Below, piece after piece: positions 10,859 to 62,464 of a DNA stretch of 64,000 bases (position 1 is its first letter; the number at the start of each line of letters is the position of its first letter). Where the stretch lies: NCBI RefSeq assembly GCF_036588685.1, contig NC_086373.1, forward strand, positions 99,696,001 through 99,760,000, written 5' to 3'. The notes beneath the pieces were generated by a model that did no database searches, was not told where the DNA came from, and worked only from the letters and a program-made list of their open reading frames with translations. Both the position numbers and the translations under genes were made by a program. This DNA comes from Mytilus trossulus (Eukaryota).

Positions 10859-11722
10859 AACTGTAACTGTATCCTTAAATAAGTGCATTCAACCTTAAAA
10901 CTAAGCGTACAAAGTGAACAATTAACCCCTGTATGTGTAACTTCTTAAATCAGCGCTGATTTGAGAAGTGTCGATGAAAAGGAAACCACGCAATGGATTA
11001 ATCACTGACAAGAATAGTATACTCTCCTTTTGTGTTGCGTTCAATTATAGAGTTCATAAAACTGTAAATCATCTAAATATAATATAATAGTTCAAAGGTA
11101 AATATGTATAAAAAAAAATCTATAAAATTAAGTTATTTATTTTTTTCAAATTAAATGCATTGCACCTTTTTGTGCTCGGCAATATCTTGACGGATATCAT
11201 ACCTTTCGCTACCCCTCCCCCTTTTCTCTCATTCTCCCCATTTCTATTAATTAATTGGCTGATTGATTTGGGATAAAGAATTTGATTGGTTTGGGATGAA
11301 GAATAAAGAAACGTCAAGTTGGCTTTTTACACAGGTTTCACCAAGTAGCATTCGAACTGCTTAATATTTTTTTTAGACGAAGGTACTATTGCAGCTTTGT
11401 ACATTTCATGGCAACTTGTCCAATTTCAATTTAAACTAAATCTGTACATCCACAGTAAAGTAGGAAGAGCAGAAAGGAAAACCACTTAAATTAGTTTAAG
11501 AAATACGGGTGAATGACTTCGTGTTTCATTAAACTTTATCCAAAATGTTAGAGAAATGCAAAAGGAACAGAATAAACCTTTTCTATCATTTCTAATGAAC
11601 GAATAACATCCTTCAAAAAGTGGTCTAACTTTGTTTGTATTGAACTTTTTCTTCTCAACATCGTTATATCTCTATTCTATAATTAATGCTGATGTCAAAT
11701 CAATATAATTAATCCAGCTTAC

Positions 11723-13864: not shown

Positions 13865-14530
13865 ACAGAAAAGAAGCTATCGTTGTATTTTAACTTCACA
13901 TTCTTCTATATAGATGATGTCCTCTTACTAAATGATTAAAAGCTGGTGACTGCTGAACGCATCTATCAAATATAACTTTAAATGAAAGATACAACGAATA
14001 AAGTCAAGTCTGCCTCATATATTGACCTAAATCTAGACATAAACGAAACTTTATGACAATAGAAATGATTTCAGATATCCAATTGTGAACTTTTCATTTC
14101 CATATAGCACCATTTCAGCAACAGCTGCATATTGAGTATATATATCCAATTTAAAGCAAGAGTTCCAATTGGTGAATATCCGTTTAAATTAAATTTACGG
14201 ATCATATGACCAGTTGGTTGACAATTATGAAATATCTGTTTCACAGATGAACACAGGTATATTCCAATTCTTGTAACGTCAATCACGTTCTCTTTCCATT
14301 GAATGTGATCTATCGAATAAGTATTATCTCTAGGTTTTTACTTAAATGTGTATCACGTTAGGTACTTCCGGAGCATCAGAGATGAACCTGGTTTTGGTTT
14401 GGTTCATATTGCTCTTTTTCTATGTTGTGTTTCGTGTATTGTCATTTGTTTTTTCGTCGGTTTGTTTTTTGCCATGATATTTGTCTGATTGTTTTAGAAT
14501 TATAAGTTTGAATATCCTTTTTTATCCTTT
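13865..14530 (+). mobile_element. older decayed copy of the Penelope-like element
   Basis: Reads EKKLSLYFNFTFFYIDDVLLLN...KDTTNKVKSASYIDLNLDI...KLYDNRNDFRYPIVNF with stops, followed by the same 3' tail as 9821-10130. Confidence 0.8.
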
Positions 14531-15129: not shown

Positions 15130-15460
15130 GCTGTATTTCGGTCACGTAGTATTGTCATTTAAGCGATATTTTTTTAACATTGTGAAAAAGAAGGCGATTC
15201 GGCTAGCCATCAAACCAGGTTTAACCTTCACGATTATTATTAAAAGGTACTAACCAAGTCAGGTTATGGCAGTTGTTATCAAATAGTTCGTTTCTTTGTA
15301 TGTTAGTGTTTGTTTTTGTTGCGTTTCAGTTTTCTTGTTGTTCCTTTGTTTTCCGCTTTAAGTTGATGTATTTCCCTCGGTTCTAGTTTGTAAGCCGGAT
15401 GTGTTGTCTGTCATTCGATTTGTGACTTTTGAATACCGGTATACTACAGTTTCCTTTATT
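15130..15460 (+). mobile_element. decayed interspersed repeat, family of 29320-29797
   Basis: Contains ggctagccatcaaaccaggtttaacc...accaagtcagg and the tail ...ggtatactacagtttcctttattt. Confidence 0.6.
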
Positions 15461-16665
15461 TTTCATACTTTAAGAGTTATATTTCATTTAATGCTGATGT
15501 TTCATGTTTACCAGGGATGTTCACCTGTAACGTTAACATATGTAAATGTGTGAGTTACTGCTCTACAACAAACTGATTTTATTAGATAATTATTGAATAA
15601 AATTGTCTTTCGCAAAATAAGTGCAATAAATAAATGTTTATGCTCATGTACTAGACTTTATTTTTGCAATGTCATAGAAAGACGGAAACTGTGATGAAAC
15701 AAACACCAACATTGACGTTTTTAATCATTGCTCTGTCTTCGAAATGCCAATTTAGGACATGCATTGCTTGTCAAAACAATTTTATGAAATCAGCACTAAG
15801 GAATTAAATATTATTTCGTTGCATTTTTTTCCTAAAGAAAATTACTTTACTTTGAAATGTCAAAATAACAGAAATTTTATTGATTTTCTGGGGAATGCAA
15901 TTAGTGCTTTCAATTAAAGATTCACTTGTCTGAAAGCTAACTTTACAATTTAACAAAATAAACTCTCCGTATTAAATTGAACTTTATTTCAATATGGTTT
16001 ATGTGCAATTGATGTAATTCTTTGCAAAGCCATACACACTATGTTTTAACACATACGCCATATGTCTTTTTATTCGTTAGGTTTTGAATAGATAAGAATT
16101 GGTCAATAATGACGGGTACTCGTCGTTCCAACCTCATTAAAAACATGATAATTTGAGTCATAACAGCTTCTCATCTGGCATAAGAACACAGTTATTTCGT
16201 AGTGCATTTCTTTTAGACAATAAATGGAAATTTAATAGAATTCCACCTGAGCTTTTTCAATAATATTTTTACAGTGTGGTGTACTAATTTTTAGACAAAT
16301 TATATAAAAATTATAGAAAACTTCAACAATTATCTCTAACCCAAAATCCGGACAATTTCATGTTAATGTGGTCTTGAATTCTCTGACAGCTAGCAAAATG
16401 CTAATTATTAACGTTTTTTCTAGCTGGACCAAATTACTACTCTACTTAAAAACTACTGATCAAAATTGTTTAACAGTGTAGAACTTTATACAGTGTAGGG
16501 TTTTACAATGTAGCTTCATATTTGCTATTTGAGGAATCAAACATGAAGAAATATATTCGAAAAGGAAATTTAAGAAATGGCAACTAACAAAACGTCTACA
16601 ATGGGGACTGTAAAGGGACAACAACTGTGTTCCTGGACCATCCTGTTGAAAGCGCATATCGATAC

Positions 16666-21689: not shown

Positions 21690-22260
21690 CTCATCATACA
21701 TACCAGGATTGAAATTTTGTATTTGCGCCATAAAAAAAATCCAAACACCAGTGACGCTTGAATCAAATACCGGAAGGTCAAATAAATTGTGAAGTTAAAT
21801 AGCATTGAGGCTTAAAAATTCATGAAGGTTTAAGGTTTTGCCAAATACAGCTAAGGTAATTTATATTTCAGAGGGTTACAAACCTAACATTTTAAAAATT
21901 AAGTTATGTAAAAAGTTAATTTACAATTATGAGCATATCAATAATAATTTATTTCAACACAGAAGTGCTGACTACTGGGCTGGTGGTATAATCGGGGAAT
22001 ATATACTCCATCAGCAGGGGAATCGACTAAGCGTTGTAAATGAACTCGTGGAGATACCAGGATTGAAATTTTGTATTTGCACCAGACGCGAGTTATGTAT
22101 ACTAAAGACTCATCAGTGATGCTCGAATTAAAAACAGTAAAGAAGACCAAATAAAGTTGAGGAACATTGCGGCCCAAAAAATCATTAATGTTTTGCCAAA
22201 TATAGCAATGGTAATTTATTCTTGAGGAAGATAAACTTTAGTTTTTCAATAATTAAAAAC
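21690..22260 (-). mobile_element. tandem (~1.6 copies, 354-nt period) hammerhead retrozyme-like repeat, decayed
   Basis: ataccaggattgaaattttgtatttgc occurs at 21700 and 22054. The minus strand reads gagcatcaCTGATGAgtctttagtatacataactcgcgtctggt, a hammerhead core with mutated stem II and GAAA. Confidence 0.7.
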
Positions 22261-22537
22261 ATTTAATTTTTACCCCAAAATTCCAAAATGCACTTAATTA
22301 AAGCACAAACAAAACAATAATAAACCATATGCGTACGGTAGATCGAGCAACAATAGAAAACCACTATACAATATCGTATAATAAACAGCTCACAACAACT
22401 GAAAGTTCAAGTTGTTCAACCAACTGATACATGATTATGCAATCTTACGTTGTAATCTAAGTCAGTGAGTGACTACATGTCACAATATATAATTGAGGGT
22501 AAATTATATGGCCTTCCAAATACCGTTTCGATCCTTG

Positions 22538-25271: not shown

Positions 25272-27044
25272 AACTAGAGGCTCTAAAGAGCCTGTGTCGC
25301 TCACCTTGGCATATGTGAATTAAACAAAGGAAGCAGATAGTTCATGACAAAATTGTGTTTAGGTGATTGTGATGTGTTTGTACATCTTCCTTTACTGAAC
25401 ATTCTTGCTGCTTACAATTATCATTATCTATAATGAACTTGTCCGTGTAGTTTCAGTGGAAAATGTTAGAAAAAATTTACAAATTTTATGAAAATTGTTG
25501 AAATTGATTATAAAGGACAATAAATTCTTAGGGGGTCAATTGACCATTTTGGTCATTTTGACTTATTTTTTAGTCTTAAATTGCTGTACATTATTGCTGA
25601 TTACAGGTTATCTCTATCTATAATAATATTCAAGATAATAACCCAAAACAGCAAAATTTCCTTAAAATTACCAACTTAGGGGCAGCAACCCAACAACGAG
25701 TTGTCCGATTCATCTAAAAATCAGGGCAGATAGATCTTGACCAGATGAACAGTTTTACATCTTGTCAGATTTGCTCTAAATGCTTTGGTTTTTGAGTTAT
25801 AAGCCAAAAACTACATTTTACCCCTATGTTCTATTTTTAGCCGTAGCGGCCATCTTGGTAAGTTTGCCCAGTCACAAAACACAATTTTAAAACTAAATAG
25901 CCTAATAATGATTCTGGCTATGTTTGGTAAAATTTGGCCCAGTAGTTTCAGAGGAGAAGATTTTTGTAAAAGTTAATTAAGATTTACGAAAAATTTATAA
26001 AAATTGACTATAAAGGGCAATAACTCCTAAAAGGGTCAACTGACCATTTTGGTCCTGTTGACTTATTTGTAAATCTTACTTTGTTGAACATTTTTGCTGT
26101 TTACATTTTATCTCTATCCATAATAATATTCAAGATAATATCCAAAAATAGCAAAAATCCTTAAAATTACCAATTCAGGGGCAGCCACCCAACAACGGGT
26201 TGTCCCATTCATCTTAAAATTTAGGGCAGATAGATCTTGACCAGATAAACAATTTTACCCCTTGTCAGATTTGCTCTAAATGCTTTGGTTTTTTAGTAAT
26301 AACCAAAAACTGCATTTAACCTCCATGTACTATTTTTAGCCGTGGCGGCCATCTTGGTTGCTTGGTCGGGTCAAAAACACAATTTTTAAAATAGATACAT
26401 CAATGATGATTGTGGCCAATTTTGGATTAATTTGGCCCAGTAGTTTCAGAGGAGAAGATTTTTGTAAAAGATCATGAAGATTTACGAAAAATGGTTACAA
26501 ATTGACTATAAAGGGCAATAACTCATAAAGGGGTCATCTGACCATTTTGGTCATGTTGACTTATTTGTAAATCTTACTTTGCTGAACATTATTGCTGTTT
26601 ACAGTTTATCTCCATCTATTATAATATTCAAGATAATAACCAAAAACAGTAAAATTTCCTTAAAATTACCAATTTCCAACAATGGGTTGTCTGATTCATC
26701 TGAAAATTTCAGGGCAGATAGATCTTGACCTGATAAACAATTTTACCCCATGTCAGATTTGCTCTAAATGCTTTGGTTTTTGGGTATTAAGCCAAAAACT
26801 GCATTTTACCCCTATGTTCTATTTTTAGCCATGGCAGCCATCTTGGTTGGTTGGCCGGGTCAAAAAACACAAATTTTAAACTAAATACATCAATGATGAT
26901 TGTGGCCCAGTTTGGTTGAATTTGGCCCAGTAGTTTCAGAGGAGAAGATTGTTGTTAAAGTTAACGACGGACGACGGACGACGGACGCCGGACGCCAAGT
27001 GATGAGAAAAGCTCACTTGGCCCTTCGGGCTAGGTGAGCTAAAA
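25272..27044 (+). mobile_element. Helentron-associated (HINE/pearl-like) element with three ~499-bp internal tandem repeats
   Basis: Starts aactagaggctctaaagagcctgtgtcgctcacc. Units begin at 25504, 26004 and 26502. A (GACG)-type microsatellite lies at ~26965-26995. The 3' hairpin agctcacttggcccttcgggctaggtgagct is followed by an A-run. Confidence 0.85.
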
Positions 27045-29319
27045 ATTACCATTTATATTTCTCAAATTGTTTAACACACTTTGGAATTTACATGTGTCTC
27101 AGGTTTCGTGTTGTACAGTTTCACGGTAAATGCATATGGATTGAAGAACTGATTTGATTGTTTCAATTAGCTTTTATGTGACTTTTTTGCTTCCTGTTAT
27201 AAATTTAACATTTATTTCAGGACTCACGCGAGGTTTAATTGTGACAAACGATTTTGAAAGAAAAAAACCCCAAATAAATGAAATTAAACAGCCCGATTGC
27301 TTAATTATCGATATAAAATTTCAACATTTTCATTCTCTCTTCTTATTTCTTTCATTTTTTTTTAAATCTGTGAAACTGCTTTAAGTGTTATTAACTGGTT
27401 ATAGTTTTACTGTTTTTTGGCGCTGACAGTAGATCTTTGATTGTTTCTGTTTAAATTATTAAGTTTAAACTAATAGAACTTTACATATTGTATAGATCTA
27501 GACCCGTTCGCACCATTCTGTTGTAGGCTGTTTTGAGTTGCAGTCTCTTTGGCTTTTACTACACATCTGTTTTTATTCATAAATAAGGTTCAATACAATC
27601 GATACAAACAATTACAAATATACCCCCTCTCTTCCAATAACAAAAACACTCATGGACAATCCAAACTTAAGACAACTGAACGGTGCATTTGGTTTTAAAC
27701 TAAATACTAGCAAGAAACTTCTCGGATCTTGATAAACAGAAAAGGCACAATTGTGACTTTCGAGATATTTAAAACCTTTGTTTAACGGAACTTGGTTTAG
27801 TTTTCAGTTATAGCTGGTACCATGGTCATATTGACATATTCCACTCTAAAGTATTTGCATTTCTAATAAAAAATCTCCATATCTATCATGTAATAAAAAC
27901 CTACTTGATTTCCTCCCTTTCATTTCCTGGCTAGGAGACTGTACTCTGCCTTAATCACGTTAAAATTGCCTTTAATACTACCGATCATTGACAGAAATTA
28001 ATAGACAATGCGGGAAAGGAAATAACGCTGTCTAAAAACATCAGTGAAGTCATCGATTCTCCAGAGAACAATGAATATAAATAAAACTTGTCAACACTGA
28101 TGCTAAGCAGTATAGTAAAATAAATGCTGCTGAAATTCCGTTAATTGCAGATATCCTTTTCTCCTCGAAGCTATTTCAATTCATTTTATTTTGTGTCACG
28201 CTTTCTGCACCTAAGAGACTATAGATATTTAACGAATGGTTATTATTTTCAATGTGTACATTTCTCTATTATGTTGCCCGAAACTAAATAAAGTTCAATG
28301 TCAAAACAAAAACAATCGTCAGAATTCAAATCTGATACGAACTTCAAAGCTTAGTTTCAACGTGCTACTATTTTTATATTTTTTTGTATAGTTTTCTGGA
28401 CTTGTCTTGATCTTACAGTCTTTTTTTCAACTAACAATGATTATGTATTTTATATGTCTGTATTTGACTTATGATTTTTGTATCATATCGGACTCGTAAA
28501 TTACAAGACTTGGTATAGTCTAAGTACCAGAATCCAAACTTATATGGAAAAGAAATAACTGAAGTAGAAACCCATCTAGTTGCTAGGCTTACAAATAAGA
28601 ACGTCATACACGCGTTTTGTTTCTTATAAGAACCATCATTTGCTCTCGAAACAAAAAAATTGGTATGCCAAACCGATTTATAACAGGCTAAAAAACTAAA
28701 GCTACTAAAAATTAAAAAAAAAAATGTGTTTAATCTTCCTCTATCTATGCCTTGGTGCAGAACATGTTTAGTCGGGATTTCGAGAAATTTCAACATTTTA
28801 TGAACAGTTATTAAAAGCAGATCGTTAATTTCATTCCAATGCAACTAATATCGTTTAGCCATTTATCTATTTTCATTTTAATTATTTATTACATAATACT
28901 ATGTTGATGGAAGTTTTTAACGACCTTGACTGGCTATACAGCCCTCGCACGGTCGTCTATATAATACTATAAATAATTTAATAAATTTCAAATAAAAATG
29001 GCTTTCACACTTTCTGGCCTTTATCATTCCCAATGAAAGTATATCCAGAGAAGTGCTTTGAATGAAACTAATTTATAAAGAGGCATTTTCACTTAAACTT
29101 ATATTTTCATGCGAATGAGCATCACTTACGGAATTCTACAACAGTTTTTTAGTGAACTTGCATCGAAAGGTTGGTGTCTCATTGATGTTTATTTCACATC
29201 TCTGTTCACATAAAGTCGGTGAAAAGCAAGGTTCAAAATTTTTTTTTTAATTTATTTGCTTATTACCTGTCTTTGATTAGATCTAACTTAGAGCATGTTC
29301 TCCAATTTATTTATATTAT

Positions 29320-29797
29320 AGTCCTGTAATGTTGTGTTGTCATTTTAATGTTATATTTCACATGGCCATAAAAGAGGGAGGTTTGGCATGCCACAAAACC
29401 AGGTTCAACCCACCATTTTGTCTTTAAAAATGTCCTGTACCAAGTCAGGAATATGGCAATTGTTAAACTATAGTTCGTTTCCCTTGTATGTTACATTTTA
29501 ACGTTGTGTCGTTTGTTTTCTCTTATTTTTGAGTGAAAATTCACATTACTATAAGACGTCTCACTGTACTTATCTATCCCAAATTCATGTATTTGGTTTT
29601 GATGGTATATTTGTTATTCTCGTAGGATTCTGTTTAATGCTTAGTCCGTTTCTGGGTGTGTTACATTTTAATGTTGTTTCGGTGTTCTCCTCTTATATTA
29701 AATGCGTTTCTCTCAGTTTTAGTTTGTTACCCCGATTTTTTTTTTGTCCATGGATTTATGAGTAATGAACAGCTGTATACTACTGTTGCCTTTATTT
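29320..29797 (+). mobile_element. interspersed repeat carrying a twister-like motif (29365-29457)
   Basis: The body matches 55870-56120 and 52630-52780 in reverse orientation and 7750-7955 in the same orientation. Motif: gccata-aaa-gagg-GAGGT-ttggcatgcca-caa-aaccaggtt-CAA-ccc-AC-cattttg..aaaaatg-t-cctgTACCAAGTcagg-aa-tatggc. Confidence 0.8.
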
Positions 29798-29969: not shown

Positions 29970-32900
29970 TTGGAAAAGAAAACACCTGCGTAATCATATA
30001 CATTTCTATTTTTCTGTGTTGAAAATAGTATCTCAATTTATTTCGGACGCAAATAAACTCATCAAAGACACCAGAATTGATTTTTTTTATTGCGCAAGAC
30101 TCATCAGTGACGCTCTAATAAAAAAGATAAAAGATTCAAATAAAGTACGAAGTTGAAGAGCATTGAGGACCAAAATTCCTAAAAGTTTTGTTAAATACAG
30201 TAAGGGTAATCAATGTATTCCTGAGTTCGAAAAGCCTTAGTAATTCTTGATCTTTTCTACTATTGATTCTCGTCATCTCAAGATGAACAACGACAGCAAA
30301 ACACATGTATTATAAAAGTTTTACATTTATCAACAACAAAATAAAATAATTCCTTATTAAAATAAGAAATGGAATTTAGTATAATAGTTATTCTTATTAC
30401 AAGATCTTAAAACAATTAAGCAACAAAGGTATACATCATGAAAAAAACACGCTAAATATGTGTGCCCGTTTTAGCTTTACATGGTTATTGAGTAAACATA
30501 CACATTCACGTTAAGTTGTTAGGGTACAGGTTTAATCGAATGCTCCGTATAGGGAAAGTACCACGATATGAACAAATGTAAGACCGCTTTCGACATTTCT
30601 TTAAGGGGAAAGCATTATCAAAACATGTTTATATTATAATATTATGTAGTGTTTAAGTAACTCATACAAGATCTTAAATCAAAAAATACATGATATATAA
30701 ACTTTGTTGGTAACAAAACAAATAATACAAAATGGCTAGATATGTGTTAGTAATTGCCTTTCACTTCTGATTTTCTACGAAATAGCTGCATGTGACTGAT
30801 TGTATGAACCAAGAGAACTTATTAATATGTTCTGTAGATTGTTAATAATAATGTATGTTGAAACATTTCATCATGATTTGTATTTTTTTTAAATGTAAAT
30901 TCCATCTGGCCAGGGAAGTCTTGTAATCGGAGAAGACGCTCATTGTCAATTGAAAACTCTGAAATGTACGTTAAAACTGCATTTATCTTTAAACACCGAG
31001 TTTCAAACATGAATGATTTATTTTTTAAATGAAAGAGTATTGCCCAACTTAAATAAGTTTCAAATCCATTTCCTCATATTCGGTCAGATTTAAATGGTTT
31101 AAATTAATAATCCGAATTGTACGATTTAAGATTTAAAATCGTTTTCTGTTATGACTGAAAAGTGTAAAAGAGAGACAGAAATTGAGGAACATTCAAAACT
31201 CATGATAAGTCGTAAAAGGAAACCGACAACGTCATGGCAAAAAAACCTTACACAAAATAATGAAAAGACGACCAAATTAACAAAACACTAGATAGAAAAA
31301 CCAAAGTTTGAGCAAGACGAACCAAAACATATATTTGTGGAACTCATGTGCTCCGGAAGGGCAATCGGATTCTGTTCCACATTTGATACTCGTCGTGGCG
31401 CTTCTGATGCAAGTACAAATCTGATGATAAATCACATTCGGTGATGTTTCAAATGAGGCGGGATTATGGTTAAGGTCATTGGACAAAAAAAAGAACACCT
31501 GCGCAATCATATACTATTCTATTTTTCTGTGTCGAAAACGGCATCTTAAATTTTTGAGAAGCAAACAAACTCATCATAGACATCAGGATTCAAATTTCGT
31601 ATATTGCGCAAGATTCATCAGTGACGATCGAATAAAAAAGAAAATTAAAAGGGCCATATAAAGTACATTAGTTGAAGAGCATCGAGGACCAAAAATTCTA
31701 AAATATTAACCAAATACAGCTAAGGTAAACTTTTCCTAAGTTAGGAAATCCTTAAACAGTATTTCGATCTTTTTTACTATTGATTCTCGTCATACAAAAG
31801 ATGAACAGCCACAATATGTAATTACAATAATCATATCTATCAAAACCCAAATAAAAACATTCCTATAAAAATGTGAAATGGAATTCAGTATAATTGTTAT
31901 TGTTATTACAATATATTAGAGCAATAAAGCAAAGGTTCACATAAAATAAAAATAAACTATTCTAAATAGGGATGTTCGTTTTGGTTTTACACATGTTTAA
32001 ATACGTATTCAAGTTCGGTTGTTAATGTGCAGTTTAAATCGAATGCCACGTATAGGAAGAGTGTCACGATCTCTGTAAATTTAAGATCCCTTCAACATTT
32101 CGTTGATGGGCATACACTATCAATACATGTTATATTCTACAAATAAGGGACGACATCAAAAGATAAATGAAGGATACAAAAATTCATTCAAAAAGTTTGG
32201 GGGTGGGGGGGTGGGGGTTGAACTGATGCAAGATTTGATTATCCTACATTGATTTTTACATATATCCATATGGGTAAATCAATTTTTCCCAAATTAAGTT
32301 AAGAGGGGGGTAGGGGGTCATTGAAAAAACTATGTGAATTAAGTTTTTTATCCTTCATTGAACTTTTGATGTCGTCCCTAATAATGTTGTGTATAATTTA
32401 CTCACATGCATAGGATCTTAAATCAAAAACTACATGATACACGTTGTATGTACCAAAACAAATATTCTAAAATGGCTAGATATGTATTAGTAAATGCCTT
32501 TAATTTCTGATGTTCTACAAGATAGCTGCACGTGACAGATTATATGAACCCAGAGAACTTATTATCATTTTTAGTATTTTGTTTATAATAATGTTCTGTT
32601 GAAATGTTACATTATAATTTGTAATTTTTTAAATGTAAATTCAATCTGGCCAGGGAAGTCCTGAATTCTGAGGAAACGTTAATTGTCAATTAAAAGCCAT
32701 GAAATGCACGTTAAACGATCATCTATCTTTAAACACCGAGTCTTTTACATGAATGATTTATTTTTTAAATGATAGAGTAATGCCAATTTTTAACAAAGTT
32801 TCAAATCCATTTCCTCGTATTCTGTTTAGATAAATTGTTTAAACAATAGTTTGAATTGTAGAATTTAAGCATTTAAAATACTTTTCTATAATGACTGCTA

Positions 32901-33270
32901 GGCTGCACTACACAGCAATTGAAATAAAACAAAGTACCAGAGGAAAATCCAAAACTCATCAATCGAAAAAGAAACTGACAACACAATGGCAAAAAAACCC
33001 TAAAGCAAAATGATGAAAAGACGATCAAGTCCACAAAAGCACTAGGTAGAAAACTAAAGTTTACGCAAGACGAACCAAAAAATACATCTGTGCGGAACTC
33101 GTGTGCTCCCGGAAGGGTAATCAGATCTTTCTCCGGTACTTGTCGTTCTGCTTATGCAAGTACAAATCCGATGATAAATCTCATTCGCTGATGTCTCAAA
33201 AGCTGACGTGAGAGTGGTAAAGATCATTGGAACATATCGATGGGCATCTGTGATGAAGATATTCTCTAAT
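29970..33270. repeat. diverged ~1.5-kb tandem duplication (29970-31478 / 31479-~33270)
   Basis: Colinear shared blocks include acacctgcg(t/c)aatcatata, ctggccagggaagtc and aaacaccgagt, plus the same retrozyme relic and Penelope-tail relic in both copies. Confidence 0.9.
32147..32378. mobile_element. PIF/Harbinger-type MITE
   Basis: TIR gggacgacatcaaaag..atgaaggata / tatccttcat..cttttgatgtcgtccc. TAA flanks both sides. The element is absent from the paralogous site (~30635) in the first duplicate. Confidence 0.85.
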
Positions 33271-41459: not shown

Positions 41460-42265
41460 TAGTTGACACAACATAGGTTTCTGACACAGAATGAATGTGG
41501 TCTAAGAACTAAAACTTAAAAACGTATATAAAAAAAAATTGTACATTTACCTATTATGGTCCAATATCCAAAATTTAAATACATGGTTAGATTCAGCATA
41601 TCATAGGACCCCAAGAATTTAAATTTTGATGAAATCAAATAATGTTCAATTTTAGACCCTTTAGACCTCAATGTAAACCAATTTGATAACCGGGCCCAAA
41701 TATTAAAAATCTAAATACATGGTTTAATTCAGCATATTGAATGAAGAACCCCATATATTCAATGTTTGTTGAATCATACAAACTTTAATTTAGACCCGGA
41801 TTTGGACCAACTTGAAAACTGGGCCCATAATAAAAAAAATCTAAGTACATGTTTTGATTCAGCATATCAAAGAACCCCCGGAATTCATTTTTTTGTTAAA
41901 ATCAAACTAAGTTTAATTTTGAACCCTTTTGACCTTAATTCCTAAACTGTTGGGACCAAAACTCCTAAAATCCATCCCAACCTCCCTTCTGTGGTCATTA
42001 ACCTTATGTTAAAGTTTCATAGATTTCTATTTACTTATACTAAAGTTATTGTGCAAAAAACAAGAAAAATGCTTATTTGGAACCTTTTTTTGGCCCTTAT
42101 TCCTAAACTGTTGGGACCAAAACTCCCAAAATGGATCCCAACCTTGCTTTTATGGTCATAAACCTTATATCAAAATTTCATAGATGTAAGTTCATTTTCA
42201 CTAAAGTTATTGTCCGAAAACCAAGAAAATGCTTCTTTTGGGCCCTTTTTGGCCCCTTATTTCTA
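41460..42265. mobile_element. HINE-like fragment with two internal satellite types (~125-bp and ~161-bp units)
   Basis: aaatacatggtt.gattcagcatat occurs three times. ttcctaaactgttgggaccaaaactc occurs at 41939 and 42100, with a third copy truncated. Confidence 0.65.
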
Positions 42266-43551
42266 AAGTTAATGAAGTTGTTAGTGAGTTTTACTGAAGT
42301 TTTTGAACAATGTATCCTTACTAAGCTGCTGATTTTGTTGTTTTTGAATAAGAACAAGCTACCTTTAAGCTAAGATACAGATTTACTGTTGAAATTGTGC
42401 ATTTGTTAAGCTGCAGTTGCATTTATATTCTATTTGTTACGACTAATTGCAATTTGGATATTTTATATATTAATTTCAGAACAGTGTATTTATTTAATTG
42501 ATAAAAATATCTATATTAATCTTTAATTCATTATTTTTCAGAATGTAACAATAATTAAAACTTTTTGTTGATAAGTTGTAAAAGTAATACACATTTTTGT
42601 CTATTTATACTTGTCAATTTCAATACATTGTCCCACACAAATTATATCAAATAAAAAATATCTTTGCACATTTTTCTTGAGTTAATAGCAGAATACAGTA
42701 TCTTTAATTAAAAAAAAATACAGGTAACATAAGAGGTATATTTAAATAAAAAAATATTTTCGCACATTTTCATTAATTTAATAGCGAAATATTGTATCAT
42801 TTATAAAAATGTACAGGTAAATTAAAAGGTAAAAATTATGACTATTATTCAGAAATAAACTATAATTGCTAAAACAACAATTCCCCCTATGTTTACATAT
42901 GCATGTAATTAAAAGTGGGCAAACCAGGATGACACCATTATGAAGACATTTTGTATATTAAAGACACGTGAGTCACTTGAGTCTTTTAGGTCATGTATGT
43001 GCATACAGGTATATGACGTTACAGCCTTTTTGTAAAAATCAGCAAGTAATTATATAGAATGTGACAACCTAACCAGCACATACTGAGGAAAAACAGGAAT
43101 ATAACATTTTATGAAATATTGCCTTTTCACATTTTATGAAATATAGATTAACATGCAACTTTATTTTTCATGAAAAATTGAAAGACATATAAATGATTGT
43201 CATTTATGTAATTACATAAAGATAAGTTAAATTTCATTCATTTGTCTTAGCACCATAGCATGTAGCATTTATACTATATCGATTATTGTCGCAAATTTCA
43301 AAAATAGCAATGTTTACTATGAAATGATATTCATGTCGATTTTCCATCCAACTTTTTTTTTTAATTACTTAAATCGTTTGTTTTTAAAACATCTGATATA
43401 CAAGATATGTAAGGAGCACAGACCACTCTCAGTAACATTACAGTTTGTTGCTTATTCTTAACTATATAAATTTCTATTACGTGTTTTATGTACTATTGTT
43501 TTATCCTCTTGTTTAGCTATGGCGTTGTCAGTTTATTTTCGACTTATAGTT

Positions 43552-44110
43552 ATAAAAAGAAGATGCGGTGTGATTGCCAATGATGCAACTCTTCACAAGA
43601 GACCAAATGGAACAGTAATAAAAAAAAAACTATAGGTCACATTACGGCCTTCAACAATGAGCAAAGGCCATAGTGAATAGTAAGCTTTAAAGGCATGAAA
43701 TCACAAATGTTAAACAATTCAAACGAGAATTAAAAAAAACCCGGCCTAATTTGTGAACAAACAAAAAAATGAACAAAAAAAAACCAATTAGGTAACACAG
43801 CAACAAACGACAACCACTGAATTACAGGTTAGCTCATGAATCGGGACAGGCATTTATACATACAGAATATGGCAGGGTTAAACATGTTAGCGGAATATTA
43901 ACCCTCCCCGGCTAACCGGAGACAGTGATGTAACAGAACAACATAAGAACGAACCATGAACATCTGTTGAAAAAGGCTTAACACATCAAACGGATACAAA
44001 TGTTTCTACTAAACACAGAGTGACATGGCCGGGTACTTGTACATTCCAACAACAAATAGACACTAAGTACAGATCTGAGAGTACTCCCATTTAATGACAA
44101 CTAGTTCAAC
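43552..44110 (-). mobile_element. interspersed repeat carrying a twister-like motif (43827-43918)
   Basis: Minus strand: ggttagc-cggg-GAGGG-ttaatattccgct-aacatgtt-TAA-ccct-GC-c...g-cctgTCCCGATTcatg-a-gctaacc. Related copies at 45750-46190, 20345-20520 and 17800-17900. Confidence 0.7.
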
Positions 44111-47100
44111 TGACAACTAAAACAATTTTTTAATTGAGTTTGAATGTACCTCTAGTATATTCGCCTCTCTTTTTCAGGTGTTGTTTGAAAAGACACATAT
44201 GCATGAAAAGATGACTACCGATATAATATATACGAATAAAAGCTTTAAAAGTTTTTTTTATACGAAATCTACTGCTAGTATTGTTTCAATAAGTTGTTGT
44301 AGTCTCCGGTATTAGGCATTGAGCGAATATGATTATTGACTATTGACAAATTGATGAATATATAAAATATTGTTATTGAGGAAAAACAGCCTAGGATTAC
44401 TGTTTGAATACAATGGATATTTGGTAAAGAGTCTTATATCAAAGGGATCAAATGAGCAGCTAACAGAAGTATGACATGATGTTGATTGATCCTTCATTAT
44501 AGTTAGTTATAACGTTTGACCTTATGAACTAATATTCCGTTACTGGACATTGATATTTTAATAGTAATAGATCTTACAGTCTAGACTAAACGCATTTATG
44601 AACAGGATGATATTCACCCGACTACTAATGGCGGTTAATAGCTTCCTCTTGGTATTCTACAGGGAACCAGTTTATGCTACAAGTTGAAATTTACACAAAC
44701 ATCATTAAATGTGAGAAAAGGATTGCAACCATTTATTGTAAATCGAATTATGTAAACCTGTTTTCCCAAGGGTTAAATTTGTTTGCGAAAAGTAAATTAC
44801 TGCAATATATAACTCCTTCTTGCATGCTGTGTCACTTGGCTAAGTTCGACCAACGGCTATGCATCTAATATAGAGTTAGCATATTGTTCACTGGTTCAGA
44901 GGATACTACAATACTTGAATTATTGGTCATACAAAACATTGCAAACATTTTTCAACGGTTTCCGACGGTGAAATTGCAATAGTAATGCGGATATTTCCTC
45001 TTTATATTAAATATTCATAATACGAAGTGGAATTGGTAAAAACAATTGAAAATATAACCAACCCTTAAAACTACTTCAAACTCTTCTAGCTGTGAAGCTT
45101 GGGATTTGACTGTAGTTACTATCATTAATAAATGGTATGGTATTGTTCTGTAGGGTGATTGATTCACAGCTTTTTGTATCTACATAATACTATTGATGAC
45201 AACGGTTTAATGGATTTAATTCCAAGTTTAGATCGAAATACAACCATTTGAAAATCTGAAAAACAATCACAATAAAACATCTAAAACAGTTAATTGTCTC
45301 TTGTTTTAAGCGTACTGTTTATGTAACACAAGTCGGTGGCAATTCGTTTGACAAAATTCTATCGTTTAATGAAATAATGAATATGACAAAAGCAATTTGT
45401 GATATTTATGTAACATGTGATTTGTTTTTCAGATACAATATAACGTCAATAAGTCAAGTACTTTAAACAGCATTATTTGAAAAAGAAATAGACGGATATT
45501 TTCCGTGATGTGTTTTTTACGGAAACTCTTAAATACCAATTCATTTTGTACTTTTAACTTTTGTGGTAGTCCTTCTAATGTTGCAGTGTAGGAAGAAATT
45601 ACTAAATGTTGCATAATCAACTTCTATATTTTTCTTCAAATTCTGCAACCTCAATTGTTTATACGCAGATCATGTTGTATTACTGGTTTTGGAATTATAA
45701 CTTATTTTTGTATACTTCACATACTGAGTAATTTCTATAGATATAAAAAAAAATGTGGTACGGTTGCAAATGAGACAACTCGCCATCATAGTCAAAATTT
45801 GTAAAATTTAACATTATAGGTCAAAGTACGACCTTCAACACGGAGCCTTGGCTAACACCGAACAACAAGCTATAAAGCCAAAAAGTTGACTAGTGTATAA
45901 TCATTCAAACAGGAAAACAATTGTCTAATCTATATAAAAAACGAGAAACAATTATGAACCACATCTACAAACTACAACCACTGAACATGAGATTCCTGAC
46001 TTAGGACAGGTGCATACAAATGCAGTAGGTTAAACTGTTTTAATAGGCACCAAACTTCACACAACCAAAACAATAGTGTAACATCACAACATAGAAAGAC
46101 ACTATAAAATATCAATTGAAATGGCTAAACTCGATCAAAGGACATATTAGCAAAACAAGTGAACATACATTGAACGAATAATGTTCATTCGGTATGAATG
46201 AGTCATACCTATTTTATCATTATAAAACCTTGATTCAGAGTGTTGTTGTGTTATATAACAACATTGCTAGATCTTGATATAGTGTCAATAACTCAAGGCG
46301 TTTGATTGTATGAACTATGTCAACGCTTATTTAACATATCAAGCATATTTTATATCAGATGAGTAAGAAATTAGCTACTGTTGTATGACTGAAGTCAACA
46401 TATATACAGACTGTACAGGCAGAATAAAGATGTAGTAGTGAAATTAGACTCTATTGCAGCAATTGTTGTAGGAATATGAACGGTTAATCGTTATTGAATA
46501 TCTGTAACAGATGAAAACGCTTATGTTTCTATTGTCGTATCCAAAATCTCAACTTTAATCAGCGAAAATTTTACTAACCATGACTAAGCGGTTGCCACAT
46601 GTTAAGCAGGATTCGAAACTATTCCAAAGCGCAAGACATCACACAGGTTACATGGTCCAAGGATAATCATTTGCATGCCTCTTAACCAGTAGGCTACTAC
46701 GACAAATTATTGCTGGGCATAAACATTATACATATTGCTGACAATTAGTATGCCATCATTTACCGATTTGTTCCGGAATAAAGAAAGATTTAAATTGATG
46801 TGGTGCCACGGTCATAAAGTAATCACTAAATGAAGGATTGCATGTTCTTCCATAATCATCTATCAAAATAAAACGGAAATTGAAGTCGGAACCATATTTA
46901 TTATCTATATATGAATATGAATCCAGCCTTATACTAAAAAGTAAAATAACAAACATACAGAACTCCAAGGAAAGTCCTCATCAAATGACAAAAACACAAA
47001 GCTCCCGCACTCAAGGTAAACACGCTACCATCAAGGCGTCAAGGTTATTAGAAAACCTGGTTTTAGAAAATTCTTACATAAATACCTTTTTATAAAAGTT

Positions 47101-47698: not shown

Positions 47699-48235
47699 AC
47701 TACAATATGCCACTTAACAATTTATTGAAATGACTAAACAATATGCCACTAAACAATTTATTGAAATGACTAAACGATATGCCACTAAACAATTTATTGA
47801 AATGACTAAACAATATGCCACTAAACAATTTATTGAAATGACAAAACAATATGCCACTAAACAATTTATTGAAATGACTTGAACAATATGCCACTAAACA
47901 ATTTATTGAAATGACTAAACAATCTGCCACTAAACAATTTATTGAAATGACTAAAAAATATGCCACTAAACAATTTATTAAAATGTCTAAACAATATGCC
48001 AATAAACAATTTATTGAAATGACTAAACAATATGCCACTAAACAATTTATTGAAATGACTAAACAATATGCCACTAAACAATTTATTGAAATGTCTAAAC
48101 AATATGCCACTAAACAATTTATTGAAATGACTTTAACAATATGCCACTAAACAATTTATTGAAATGACTAAACAATATGCCACTAAACAATTTATTGAAA
48201 TGACTTTAACAATATGGCCCTAAACAATTTATTAA
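47699..48235. repeat. 36-bp minisatellite, ~15 copies
   Basis: Unit acaatatgccactaaacaatttattgaaatgactaa is built from two actaaacaat-headed subunits. It explains the repetitive ORFs at 47700-48150. Confidence 0.95.
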
Positions 48236-51200
48236 ACTGCGTCGATTCTTCATCCAATATATTTTAAACAGTTGTCATCTCTTATATTGAATATAAAATC
48301 AATGGAATACACACTGTAATGTATTGAAAAAACGAGTAAAACCGATTCTTGTAATTAATGTTAATGCTAGAAGGGCCATAGGACCAACATAATTTAGATG
48401 TGGATTTGATAGCGCTCATTTCCCAACTGGTTTAGAATTAATTTCAGTAAAATAATGATACAATGCACATTCTTTTACCAAAGAACTATTACTTTTTATT
48501 ACCAGATTTATTTTTATGGTCCCAAACGTCACATAACTCTATATAAGACTATAGAAAAACGCCAATGAAAGTGTTCAAGGAAGATACATTTTTACACATA
48601 ATTACAGGATATTGGGAAAACTTAAAGATAAACTCGTCAAGGGAACACCTTAGTATTACAGGATGTTATCAAAACGTAAAGCTCAATTTGTCAAGGGAAC
48701 ACCTAAGCATTGTTTGTATACATGAAAACATAACATTATGCCGTTGTAAGACAAATATATTGCTAAAATGATGTATTTTAAAATGCAGATGCAATTAAAT
48801 CTTAAGGTTACATACTGTTTTCGTCAGTCTTTTCATTGGTTGTCTTTAGAGATTTACAAGTACATCATAAAATTTAGTTGCATTGCATAACTAATTGACA
48901 ACCTAGTCTATGATCATTAACAATGAACAAGAAAAACTAATAAAACGTATAAAACTTAGCAAAATGTCTAACTTTCTAAAACATGACTGTGCATCTTAAT
49001 CAATATATACCGAAGCTGCATACAATTGATTCTCTTTATCTCAAAGCTTTTTTCTCTAAAAATACCTTTTAAAAAAGTCATAGTTAAATGTCTAACTAAA
49101 TTGATAGCTTCACATTATCATAACCTCTGATAACTCAAACTTCCTGTTAATTCATTTTTTAAACCAGTTTAAACTACTTTGAGCTAGCGAGAGTAGACTA
49201 TGTATTACACAACGGAATAGAAAAAATATCGTAACATAGATACAAGGAGATTTGGTATGACAACACTCAATCCAAATGACATGTTTCATGTCAGATGTCT
49301 TATCAGCCCTGTGTTAATACAACCCCTCTAGATAGTCATCGGTACTTCTTGGAGTGACAGTACTAAAGCCTGGGTCTGAAAATTCATCCAATATGAAAAC
49401 TGTCATGTGATATTCTGATAATATTGCATCGATAGCCATGCAATAGCCCTATATTACATATATATACTTGTATTCTTTATTGTGGCGGCAGGCGCAATTG
49501 ACAAACGACATTTTCTCTCCATGAAAGTTCATAACAATATCTGTCTTCTTCTTCAAGGTTGAAATAATTATCTATTTTCAGTTTCTTCAAGGTCAAAAGT
49601 ATTGGTCTAATTTGTATTTTGTTAGACAGATTCGTCAATATTGTTTATGAATTTTATAAAGAATATAGTCTGAACTTTCTTGAAGCATGTAGGTTATCAT
49701 AGACGAAATAACTATCATAGATCAAGTTAAATAATTTCAATGAGTCTGGCTCTATTATTTCTATAACCGATAGAAAACAACACAAAATATGCTCACTAGA
49801 TGTTGTCAGATAAAGGAGGAGATAATAGTAAACATACACCAAACACATTTAACCTTTGGCAAGTATATGGACCTTAAACAAAACTGTTAAATGACGGATT
49901 TTCAACCAAGGTTAGCACGACCTGCTTGGCATGTGAAATCCGTTAAAATACCAAGAAAATAAGTAAGATCAGAAAATGTCAAATCGGTTAAACAAAACAT
50001 CATGAAAATATAAGAAAAGTGTCTATCTAAATAGGGTAGATCCAATATAGATTATTTTTGAATATATGCATTTACAGAAATTAAAAAAAATCTCTGATAG
50101 CTAATGGTAGAACCAGGCTTACAACTTTTCATTTATTATTAATCCCTTGTTTTGGTTCTTACCAATTGGGAATAACAATCAGTCGATAACGGAGAAACAA
50201 TACGAAAAAAGACAATATAAACAATAGCATAAACTCGATAACATTTCAATTATATCAACACCTTTGATCTGAAAATATGGCATTTTAACGGTCTATGAAT
50301 GCATATTTAAAAACATTTAATCAAATATTTAAAACAAAACAAAAATCTAAAACTCATATATGGGAGACTACATTGTTGAAAACCTCTGGATGATTTTATC
50401 TGTAAGAATTATAATACTAAATTAATGTCAAAGCTCTGTGTTGAAGGCTAATTGTTAAAGTTTTATACATTTTGACTTAGATGGAGAGTTGTCTCATTGG
50501 CGCGAACACATACGACATTTTCTTATTTATATAATCAGTACACTCACACAAAGTATGGAAACTTGATTTGAAAGTTAATATTTTTTGTTATGCTTATTCA
50601 ATACGTTGATACAATTTGAATGTTAACACATGTGTCATTGAAAAACATATCGTTTGCATCGTTCATTATATTGTGAACAATTCAATGTCTTAAATCTTTT
50701 AAAAAACACAAAATTATATATTATTTGATTTTGAGACTCGGAATTCTACGTTAGACAATAAATTGATTTATTTAGACAACATCTTTACAACACATGATGT
50801 AATTTCATTATTATTACCTATAATTATCTAGGACTAGTAAAACTCTATTCTAGAAAAGACTATCATGAGAAATGTTCTATCATACTTTAGGTCAATATCT
50901 AGTCCAGATCTTTTAGAATCTTGTGGCAGATGTTCAAAGAAGATAATGTTTTCACGTTAGATTGAGTAGTATATAAAATTATGACGATAGTTTGGTTCAA
51001 AGTGAATATTTCTTTTATTATCATAGCTCTTTATAGTGCTAAACATAAATTTCCCATTGTTCCTTTTAACTTGTTTTCTTCAACTTCTCTCTCATCTTTA
51101 TGAACAAAATTATATGATAAGAGACCAAAAGATTCAATCCAACAAAGGCAAAGCAACTCGATCAATCTAACTGAATTATATAGGAATTAAAGATTATGAC

Positions 51201-51827: not shown

Positions 51828-52230
51828 AAAAAGTAAAATCACAAAAAATACTGAACTCCGAGGAAAAATTCAAAACGGAAAGTTTCTTATCAAATGGCAA
51901 AATCAAAAGATAAAACACATCAAACGAATGGAAAACAACTGTCATATTCCTAACTTGTTACAGGTATTTTCTTATGTAGAAAATAGTGGATTGAACCTTG
52001 TTTTATAGCGCTTAAACATTCTACTTGTATGACAGTCGAATCAAATTCCATTCTATTGACAATGACACGTGAACAAACAGATATAATAGGTAAAATTGTC
52101 AAAATAGGGGTACAGCAGTCATCAGTTTGTCCAAGGATTTGTATAGTTAACTATACAAATCCTTGGTTTGTCACAATCTCAATCAGAACACCAAAAAAAA
52201 AAACATTTAACAAAGAAGCACATACAAGTA
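51828..52230 (-). mobile_element. interspersed repeat (aaaagtaaaatcacaaaaatactgaactccgagg family) with twister-like motif 51937-52037
   Basis: Matches 61305-61560. Shorter fragments at 5320-5430, 8368-8475, 46935-47000 and 58045-58200. Confidence 0.8.
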
Positions 52231-61304: not shown

Positions 61305-61775
61305 AAAAAGTAAAAACACAAAAATACTAAACTCAAAGGAAAATTCAAAAAGGAAAATCAAAAATCAAAAGGTAAAATCAAAAGTCAAAACACATAAAAC
61401 GAATGAATAACAACTGTCATATTCCTGACTTGGTACAGGCATTTTCTAATGTAGAAAATGGTGGATTGAACCTGGTTTTATAGCTAGCTAAACCTCTCAC
61501 TTTTATGACAGTCGCATCATATTCCATTACATTGTCAACGATGAATGAACAAAACAATGTGATACGACTGTAATACAAGTGAGAGGTTTACCGGTATAAA
61601 ACCAAGTTCAATCCATCATTTTCTACATTTAAAAATGCTTGTACCATTTCAGGAATGTGGCAGTTGTTGTCCATTCGTTTGATGTGTTTTATCGTTTGAT
61701 TTTGTCATTTGATTGGGAAATTTCCATTTAGTTTAGAATTTTCCTCGGAGATCAGTATTTTTGTGATTTTACTTT
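61305..61775. mobile_element. two copies of the same family in inverted, head-to-head arrangement
   Basis: 61305-61515 is the diverged reverse complement of 61565-61775. Confidence 0.85.
61411..61513 (-). ncRNA. best-preserved twister-like (P5-type permuted) structured RNA motif
   Basis: gactgtcata-aaa-gtga-GAGGT-ttagctagcta-taa-aaccaggtt-CAA-tcc-AC-cattttcta(cat)tagaaaatg-cctgTACCAAGTcagg-aa-tatgacagtt. The P5, P3 and P4 helices and both pseudoknot pairings can be drawn. Confidence 0.55.
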
Positions 61776-62464
61776 TCAAAGAGTAACTCATATACAACCT
61801 TGCTATACTTAAATAATTCCACTAGGTTATGTCTCATGTGGAAATGAGTGTTAATAGACGATAAGGTGTATCGATTCATTGTTTTGATAGACAACTCTTT
61901 TGTAATATTAATTGTTGTAATATATTTGAAAAGTATTTGGAAAAGAGTTGATTTATCAGATCTGTATGAAAAACACGAAAACAAGACCAAAAAAATCCAC
62001 AAAGCACCGATCAAATAGAACTCGCAGCTACAAATCAAAAAAACAGTATCAACTAGTAAATAATGTTAACCAACATTAAAACGTCATCAGTCAGTAAATA
62101 TCCAACGGATTTTAAATAATGACGTCATAAACAGTCTGAATGAGACGTGACCTAGTGCAGTACCAAAATATACATTAAAAGTATCGGCAAGGTGTGAGAT
62201 AATAAATGTTGACTATTTTTAACAAAACATACTTGGCCATGTTTTAATCCTAATTTTTATTGGATTTCTACCGAATTGTAGTACCTTAGAATTTAGTTAA
62301 GATTTTAGTAAGTATACTTTTTGTATAGAGAAATTGAAAAATCCAAGTACAATTTCATTTTTTATTTTTAATATTCAAAGACAAAAGACTAAGTTTCATC
62401 CAATATTGATGTAATTTGATAGAGCTTTGTCCAGATCATGGTAGAATGTGTAAATTATTCAAGT

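What the first reader, a model, noticed from the sequence alone, without database searches (positions are those of the whole stretch)
29365..29457. Same twister-like motif in a different repeat family, with compensatory changes
Seen: the flanks are unrelated to the 61.4-kb family but the core is retained. The enclosing helix is now gccata/tatggc. P2 is ccc:g(a)gg versus tcc:g(t)ga, a C-G/T-A swap with the same bulge. GAGGT:TACC and AC:GT are kept. In the copy at 51937-52037 (-), the P3 closing pair changes from C-G to T-A on both sides. Inference: selection acts on the RNA structure, and the module is shared between families.
Basis: partly seen in the sequence, partly recalled or inferred. Interest (0 to 1): 0.75.

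Follow-up and report, generated by a model that had tools for sequence, protein, structure and literature searches.

The report
Twister ribozyme in Naiad retrotransposon tails
This mussel-type repeat is the tail end of a Naiad jumping gene, and it carries a fold with the layout of a twister self-cutting RNA that likely cuts the element's transcript and is predicted to switch on only when two copies pair up, which would fill the gap left by reports that Naiads lack the usual hammerhead ribozyme.

Summary
The motif is real. At 29365-29457 (+) all twister core pairs are intact in type-P5 order, except that stem P1 is missing; predicted cut 29406^29407. It lies in the 3' end of a 5'-truncated Naiad (Penelope-like retroelement). 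The 61.4-kb family matches the published Naiad_Mgal 3' end. A metagenome copy of the 29.4-kb family abuts a GIY-YIG+RT frame. Read by eye, 7 of 52 published Naiad 3' ends (mussels, clams, a box jelly, a comb jelly) carry the same fold, with paired changes in P2, P3, P4, P5 and both pseudoknots. Where P1 should be, all seven carry two self-complementary palindromes; the second also pairs with the T1 strand. Best reading: an element-encoded twister, likely held off as a monomer and switched on as a dimer, like Penelope hammerheads. Against: Rfam finds no twister; mussel copies alone show no T1, T2 or P4 covariation; the P3 swap at 52 kb is private to a dead copy; one RNA run shows no read ends at the cut. 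No cleavage was tested. Searches found no paper linking Naiads and twisters. New variant of a known kind; interest 0.72.

The parts
29297..29796 (+). 5'-truncated 3' end of a Naiad-type Penelope-like element (family B)
   Evidence: 89% identical over 514 nt to L028:1216-1726, whose 3' end abuts a GIY-YIG+RT frame; sharp 3' terminus at L028 1719-1721 in laid reads and contigs
29365..29457 (+). Type-P5 twister-like RNA lacking P1; enclosing helix P5 at 29365-29370 and 29452-29457
29374..29382 (+). P2 3' strand (29374-29377, bulge at 29375), G-A (29378-29379; G is the inferred general base), T1 3' strand GGU (29380-29382)
   Evidence: roles inferred from the twister model
29384..29393 (+). Palindrome 1, a perfect 10-mer with no loop; predicted intermolecular duplex
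   Evidence: -19.2 kcal/mol as dimer against -1.1 as monomer; 11 of 500 shuffles as stable
29397..29405 (+). Palindrome 2 (AACC-A-GGUU); its 5' half is also complementary to the T1 3' strand; predicted off-switch in the monomer and P1 substitute in the dimer
   Evidence: it tracks the T1 strand in published consensuses (by eye)
29406..29413 (+). Predicted cut C29406^A29407; A-A; P2 5' strand 29409-29411; T2 5' strand 29412-29413
   Evidence: position inferred from the twister model; no read ends pile up at the matching place of L028
29414..29449 (+). P3 hairpin (29414-29432), P4 (29434-29437 with 29446-29449) and the 8-nt loop L4 holding T1 (29439-29441) and T2 (29444-29445)
   Evidence: (P4 pair probability 1.0)
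61307..61545 (-). Family A (Naiad_Mgal-type) 3' end with intact core at 61418-61510
   Evidence: 3 differences in about 100 nt from the Naiad_Mgal consensus, by eye
61556..61776 (+). Second family A copy, head to head with the first (inverted 5'-truncated pair, typical of Penelope-like elements); T2 damaged
51828..52065 (-). Decayed family A copy; catalytic G and T1 broken; carries the private P3 T-A pair
15146..15461 (+). Old family-B-like copy with decayed core at about 15186-15270
   Evidence: E 0.0004
43825..43922 (-). Probable decayed copy from a further family (T1 CCC/GGG, palindrome 2 AACAUGUU); similar weak relics at 45984-46077 (-) and 60668-60740 (+)
   Evidence: (E 0.027, 0.14, 0.14; weak)

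Best explanation
The motif sits in the 3' end of Naiad Penelope-like retroelements, has the twister core in type-P5 order with two palindromes in place of stem P1, and is likely a self-cleaving ribozyme that is predicted to be off as a monomer and on as a dimer. Shown: location in Naiad 3' ends, the conserved core residues, paired changes across families, two loop-less palindromes, and complementarity of palindrome 2 to the T1 strand. Inferred: in one copy, palindrome 2 pairs with the T1 strand and blocks the pseudoknot. In a tandem transcript (upstream pseudo-LTR plus downstream 3' end) the two copies pair through both palindromes, which frees T1, supplies P1 in trans and cuts both at N^AA. 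That would release a unit-length RNA with 5'-OH and cyclic-phosphate ends for ligation to a circle and reverse transcription, while lone copies in host transcripts stay largely uncut. The window copy is a passive, truncated insertion that still has an intact core.
For: Core residues and all T1, T2 and P4 pairs are present in the finding's copy in the register described for twister: invariant G-C, U.A, three T1 pairs plus A.A. Chance: 3 hits in 300 shuffles. A model built from mussel copies finds the clam-type locus L040 (E 0.0014) and none of 25 chance loci; L040 has a 4-bp P2, T2 CC/GG and a changed P4. Published consensuses read by eye: 7 of 52 Naiad 3' ends carry the fold; T1 is ACC/GGU, CAC/GUG or CGA/UCG; T2 is AC/GU, CC/GG or GC/GC; every P5 differs. 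All seven have two palindromes of differing sequence, and palindrome 2 changes with the T1 strand (GGUU/AACC, GUGUU/AACAC, AUCG/CGAU). The blocker pairing has probability 0.31-0.89 in 7 of 7 folded copies. L028: this 3' end joins a Naiad 5' start and an 860-aa frame with N-terminal GIY-YIG, CxC, DKA and RT; L040 joins a Naiad_Scon-like start. P1 is dispensable and P2 flaws are tolerated in twisters. Penelope hammerheads with palindromic stems are thought to cleave as dimers.
Against: No cleavage assay. Rfam gives no twister match on the window (E<=1), the finding (E<=10) or L040 (E<=10). In one RNA run, 3,400 reads lay on both strands with no start or end pile-up and none on the ORF. P2 in mussels is only 2-3 bp with a bulge and is never predicted to form in 6 of 7 folds. 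Removing the palindromes freed the T1 strand in only 2 of 7 copies, not in the finding's own (pseudoknots not modelled). The third T1 pair is U.U in Mphi, Scon, Mmer and L040. Dimer stability beats shuffles only modestly (11-70 of 500 in 9 copies, 202 and 235 in 2 copies with a mutated palindrome). The relics at 43.8 and 60.7 kb keep palindrome 2 with a weaker blocker. The cross-phylum comparison was by eye, not computed. L028 may be a chimeric contig.
Confidence: 0.6

Rival explanations
1. It is an active twister that cleaves as a monomer (a natural P1-less twister); the palindromes serve another job, such as dimerising or packaging the element RNA or binding the RT protein.
For: Twisters lacking P1 cleave at almost wild-type rate. 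A similar palindrome also sits in a different, non-twister motif in 11 other Naiad 3' ends (by eye), so palindromes may be a general Naiad signal. Freeing the palindromes opened T1 in only 2 of 7 folds.
Against: Palindrome 2 changes together with the T1 strand across phyla and is predicted to sequester it. It lies directly 5' of the cut, in the P1 slot.
Confidence: 0.22
2. The fold descends from a twister but in mussels no longer cuts, or cuts only with protein help; it is kept as a structural signal for reverse transcription.
For: Short bulged P2, with C.C at its base in a large part of family B; no read-end pile-up; no Rfam match.
Against: The catalytic G and A-A and the loop residues are kept in all 7 consensuses. 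Changes there abolish or reduce activity, while P2 flaws do not. Ordinary RNA-seq of mostly lone, decayed copies is a weak test.
Confidence: 0.13
3. The pattern is DNA-level hairpins and palindromes made by template switching in a repeat, and the twister likeness is coincidence.
For: Penelope-like insertions make inverted repeats (window 61.3-61.8 kb). The P3 swap at 52 kb could be such an event. Among mussel copies only P5, P2 and palindrome 1 covary.
Against: Hairpin-making processes do not explain paired changes in two pseudoknots across phyla, a fixed 8-nt loop, or a fixed sense orientation in 3' ends. The chance rate is 0.01 per window.
Confidence: 0.05

Closest known systems
Twister ribozyme, type P5 (Roth et al. 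2014, recalled; features read in PMC5408937 passages and PMC11662667 sections 4, 32, 35)
   Same: Order of elements, P2, P4, optional P3 and P5, 8-nt L4, pseudoknots T1 and T2, catalytic G and N^AA
   Different: No P1, two palindromes instead; non-standard T1 and T2 letters; 3-nt P2 strand with bulge in mussels; not detected by Rfam 15
Dimer-acting minimal hammerheads of Penelope-like elements (PMC6765202 section 11; the Lunse et al. 2017 paper itself was not held)
   Same: Ribozyme in the pseudo-LTR of a Penelope-like element, with a palindrome in place of a stable stem, thought to need two copies
   Different: Different ribozyme class; two palindromes; an apparent built-in blocker of the active fold
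T-variant twisters of Schistosoma Perere-3 (PMC8501958, abstract and outline only)
   Same: Twister variant with altered P1 tied to a retrotransposon
   Different: Those lie at the 5' end of a non-LTR element and take part of P1 from the target-site duplication; these lie in the 3' end or pseudo-LTR of Naiads
Naiad clade of Penelope-like elements (PMC8557442: passages, section 6, supplement searches and part 1)
   Same: 5' truncation, partial tandems, inverted 5' pair, N-terminal GIY-YIG, CxC, DKA; family A matches Naiad_Mgal
   Different: The paper reports no canonical hammerhead and never mentions twister (0 occurrences in the main text); family B was not found among its consensuses (2 motif searches)

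Membership tests
Twister ribozyme | P4 with closing G-C, U.A and 8-nt L4 | tested here: met
   register
Twister ribozyme | Pseudoknot T1 (three pairs plus A.A) | tested here: met
   3 of 3 pairs in the finding's copy; covaries in Mley and Movir-1 by eye; third pair U.U in clams, Mphi and L040
Twister ribozyme | Pseudoknot T2 (two pairs) | tested here: met
   AC/GU here, CC/GG in L040, GC/GC in Mley and Movir-1
Twister ribozyme | Stem P2 | tested here: inconclusive
   3 bp with bulge here; mismatched base pair in 4 of 6 family B copies; 4 bp in L040 and in clam, box jelly and comb jelly consensuses
Twister ribozyme | Catalytic G (general base) and A-A after the cut | tested here: met
   kept in 7 of 7 consensuses by eye
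Twister ribozyme | Stem P1 in cis | tested here: not met
   no pairing between the strands flanking T1 and the cut; two palindromes instead. P1 is in the consensus but dispensable for activity, so this is filed as a variant, not a canonical member
Twister ribozyme | Match to Rfam twister covariance models | tested here: not met
Twister ribozyme | Site-specific self-cleavage | not testable with these tools
   needs an assay; one RNA run showed no end pile-up
Naiad Penelope-like element | N-terminal GIY-YIG before RT, with CxC and DKA motifs | tested here: met
   in L028, not in the window copy, which is truncated: PF01541 at residues 138-226, PF00078 weak at 753-856; CxC and DKA seen in the translation; criteria
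Naiad Penelope-like element | 5' truncation, fixed 3' end, partial tandem and inverted 5' copy | tested here: met
   (3' segment mostly one to two orders of magnitude deeper than the ORF, sharp end); inverted pair at 61.3-61.8 kb
Naiad Penelope-like element | RT falls in the Naiad clade on a tree | not tested
   no tree built; the published proteins were not available as tool sequences
SECIS element of selenoprotein Naiads | Lies at, or within about 21 nt after, the stop codon of a UGA-containing frame | tested here: not met
   SECIS is reported only for Scon, Mmer and two spider families, next to the stop; this motif lies near the 3' terminus and also in non-selenoprotein Naiads

The most novel reading that the evidence does not exclude
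The first naturally dimer-gated twister: an animal-wide, P1-less type-P5 twister in Naiad retroelements, from comb jellies to clams, whose two palindromes act as a copy counter, so that only tandem element transcripts are cut and circularised while thousands of lone copies in host RNAs stay silent. Naiads would then swap between ribozyme classes (twister, an undescribed pseudoknot motif, rearranged hammerheads) at one slot.
Probability: 0.45. Interest if true: 0.85.

Novelty: new variant of a known kind. Interest (0 to 1): 0.72.

Why it matters
Craig et al. concluded that Naiads, among the most abundant repeats of bivalve genomes, lack canonical hammerheads, and suggested hammerheads might simply parasitise Penelope-like elements. 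A different ribozyme class in the same slot points the other way: cleavage is needed, and the class is interchangeable. It gives an easy experimental handle on the unresolved Penelope transposition mechanism (tandem transcript to circle). It would add a twister architecture that Rfam misses, with thousands of copies per mussel genome. If dimer-gated, it is a natural two-copy RNA switch useful for synthetic biology.

Tried and rejected
No genome is held for the window, so no genome-wide consensuses or copy counts could be built. Rfam: no twister on the window, the finding or L040. Viral-contig scans gave only chance hits or nothing. 21 of 28 metagenome hits and 18 of 20 genome-contig hits were chance matches and were dropped. 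No plasmid match. The look-up of sequencing runs listed no holder on record as RNA (not evidence either way). Laid reads showed no end pile-up. The rest of the L028 contig could not be fetched, so its ORF is not directly tied to a downstream twister. Earlier scan findings: none in 4 look-ups. The supplement of PMC11662667, which predicts twisters in unnamed bivalves, was unreadable and may list some of these. Rejected: SECIS (wrong place, also in non-selenoprotein families); microRNA mir-2013 (26 bits against gathering 70, caused by the inverted junction at 61.5 kb); alternative P2 registers for mussels (they break T2); the 52-kb P3 swap as evidence of selection. Literature: 'Naiad'+'twister' 0 papers; 'twister'+'ribozyme'+'Mytilus' 2 listings, both on hammerhead retrozymes or RNA circles; the listings showed no such report. 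The library lacks most subscription papers.

Full report
1. Observation. The window is AT-rich (27-36% GC) repeat-rich eukaryotic DNA with no genome held. The stretch 29365-29457 reads as described. Related cores lie at 61418-61510 (-), 61569-61661 (+), 51937-52037 (-) and, decayed, 15186-15270 (+). Between the 29.4-kb family (B) and the 61.4-kb family (A), blastn aligns only the ~100-nt core. Parsed against the twister layout, the finding's copy has P2 3 of 3 pairs with a bulge, T1 3 of 3, T2 2 of 2, P4 4 of 4, G-A before T1 and C^AA. A core descriptor, written after seeing the motif, hit 8 places in 339,141 bases (2 in the window, 6 of 50 loci), all real copies; it missed three damaged or truncated real loci, and gave 3 hits in 300 window shuffles. 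The P3 T-A closing pair occurs in 1 of 11 parsed copies, a copy with a broken core, and is absent from the published family consensus. The P2 closing pair is C-G in only 2 of 6 family B copies (mixed in reads). On 10 mussel-type copies, 8 of 26 pairs change on both sides, all in P5, P2 and palindrome 1, none in T1, T2 or P4 (related copies, so the shuffle figures are not probabilities).

2. What it is. A metagenome scan gave 28 loci, 7 of them real copies. In L028 the family B segment (888-1720) is followed at once by a conserved element start and an 860-aa frame with N-terminal GIY-YIG and then RT, with the CxC and DKA motifs that Craig et al. give as Naiad diagnostics. The contig has bacterial-looking sequence upstream and may be chimeric. 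Laid contigs cover the 3' segment mostly one to two orders of magnitude deeper than the ORF and end sharply at 1719-1721, as expected for 5'-truncated retrocopies. The head-to-head pair at 61.3-61.8 kb is the inverted 5' arrangement typical of these elements. The family A core differs from the Naiad_Mgal 3' end at 3 of about 100 positions (by eye), which points to a Mytilus-type mussel (inference). A second scan gave L040, a clam-type copy followed by a Naiad_Scon-like start, and L039, a truncated copy of another family. A covariance model built from mussel copies alone finds L040 (30 bits, E 0.0014) and none of 25 chance loci.

3. Published consensuses. I read the last 400-490 nt of 52 of the 54 Naiad consensuses in the supplement of PMC8557442 by eye (Smim and Cmel not seen; motifs further upstream would be missed). 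Seven carry the fold: Mgal, Bpla, Mphi, Scon, Mmer (5 of 11 bivalve families), Movir-1 (box jelly) and Mley (comb jelly). P5 differs in each. P2 is 4 bp in Scon, Mmer, Movir-1 and Mley, and 3 bp with a bulge in mussels (U-A base pair in Mgal and Bpla, C-G in Mphi). T1 is ACC/GGU, CAC/GUG or CGA/UCG, with a U.U third pair in Mphi, Scon and Mmer. T2 is AC/GU, CC/GG or GC/GC. P4 changes on both sides. The G-A, the N^AA and the U and A-A of the loop do not change. These match the features described for twister structures and the positions most sensitive in a large cleavage screen, whereas P1 and P2 flaws are tolerated. Rfam 15 does not detect any of this, probably because P1 is missing and the pseudoknot letters differ (inference).

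4. The P1 slot. No copy has P1 in cis. All seven consensuses have two palindromes there, with no loop or a 1-nt loop. The central four letters of palindrome 1 take eight different self-complementary forms across copies and consensuses; an ordinary loop would be self-complementary about 1 time in 16 (my arithmetic). The segment folds at 0 to -1.8 kcal/mol alone and -8 to -19 as a dimer, though only modestly better than shuffles. Palindrome 2 is also complementary to the T1 3' strand and changes with it across phyla. This blocker has probability 0.31-0.89 in 7 of 7 folded copies, but removing the palindromes freed T1 in only 2 of 7, not in the finding's copy, where the strand pairs elsewhere; pseudoknots are not modelled. 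Weak relics at 43.8 and 60.7 kb keep palindrome 2 with a poorer blocker.

5. Mechanism. Likely (about 0.8): a self-cleaving twister variant encoded by the element, cutting about 390 nt (family B) or 160 nt (family A) before the 3' end. Less sure (about 0.6 overall): off as a monomer, on when the pseudo-LTR copy and the 3' copy of a tandem transcript pair, which would release unit-length RNA for ligation and reverse transcription. This parallels the dimer model for Penelope hammerheads and the circles shown for mussel hammerhead retrozymes. None of this was assayed. The one RNA run laid on L028 (about 6% of the run) gave 3,400 reads on both strands, none on the ORF and no end pile-up. That fits passive transcription of lone, decayed copies and gives no support for cleavage.

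6. Known and new. Twisters, P1-less activity, retrotransposon-linked twister variants (PMC8501958, abstract) and Naiads are known. Craig et al. searched Naiads for hammerheads only and report that canonical ones are lacking; 'twister' does not occur in their main text. Searches for Naiad+twister and Mytilus+twister found no report. PMC11662667 predicts type-P1 twisters in unnamed bivalves; its supplement could not be read and may bear on novelty. Papers seen: PMC8557442 (passages, section 6, supplement searches and part 1), PMC11662667 (abstract, sections 4, 32, 35, passages), PMC5408937, PMC10085705 and PMC7229834 (passages), PMC6765202 (passages, second part of section 11), PMC8501958 (abstract, outline), bioRxiv 10.64898/2026.07.22.740005 (first fifth). 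Verdict: new variant of a known kind; interest 0.72.

Noticed in passing
window 9950-10050 (-), in the Naiad-like RT fragment 9822-10860; decayed relatives near 14365-14521, 31185-31442, 32931-33187: A second conserved structured motif at Naiad 3' ends (helix, perfect palindrome, hairpin, probable pseudoknot), with no Rfam match. By eye it also stands in 11 of 52 published Naiad 3' ends (oysters, ark shell, pearl oyster, acorn worms, Clytia), never together with the twister in the parts seen. It may be an undescribed or HDV-like ribozyme filling the same slot.
   Followed up: partly
L028 1108-1160; L025 3-50; L027 and L024 upstream of the core: A type I hammerhead relic lies about 150 nt upstream of the twister in family B, with its core damaged differently in each copy seen, while the twister core beside it is intact; possibly a hammerhead replaced by a twister.
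   Followed up: partly
window 22050-22300 (-), 30050-30250 (-), 31560-31750 (-): Decayed hammerhead-bearing (retrozyme or Penelope-type) repeat fragments
   Followed up: no
PMC8557442 supplement, nematode Naiads (Nbra-1 to -3, Hcon, Hpol, Asuum) and Octopus Naiads: Hammerhead core halves separated by long inserts, or in reversed order, at the 3' ends; could be rearranged or dimeric hammerheads missed by standard descriptors
   Followed up: no
window 55867-56320 (-) and 7770-7957 (+), 52624-52762 (-): Shorter family B 3' fragments without the core; the one at 56 kb has a 161-bp tandem duplication and abuts a 34/69-bp satellite array
   Followed up: no
L040 (561-nt scaffold of a bacterial draft genome) and L039 (MAG contig): Both look like mollusc retroelement DNA contaminating prokaryote assemblies
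   Followed up: partly
window 25501-26964, 41916-42267, 47702-48236, 59400-61230: Tandem arrays with 498-, 161-, 36- and 35-bp units; unrelated to the finding
   Followed up: no
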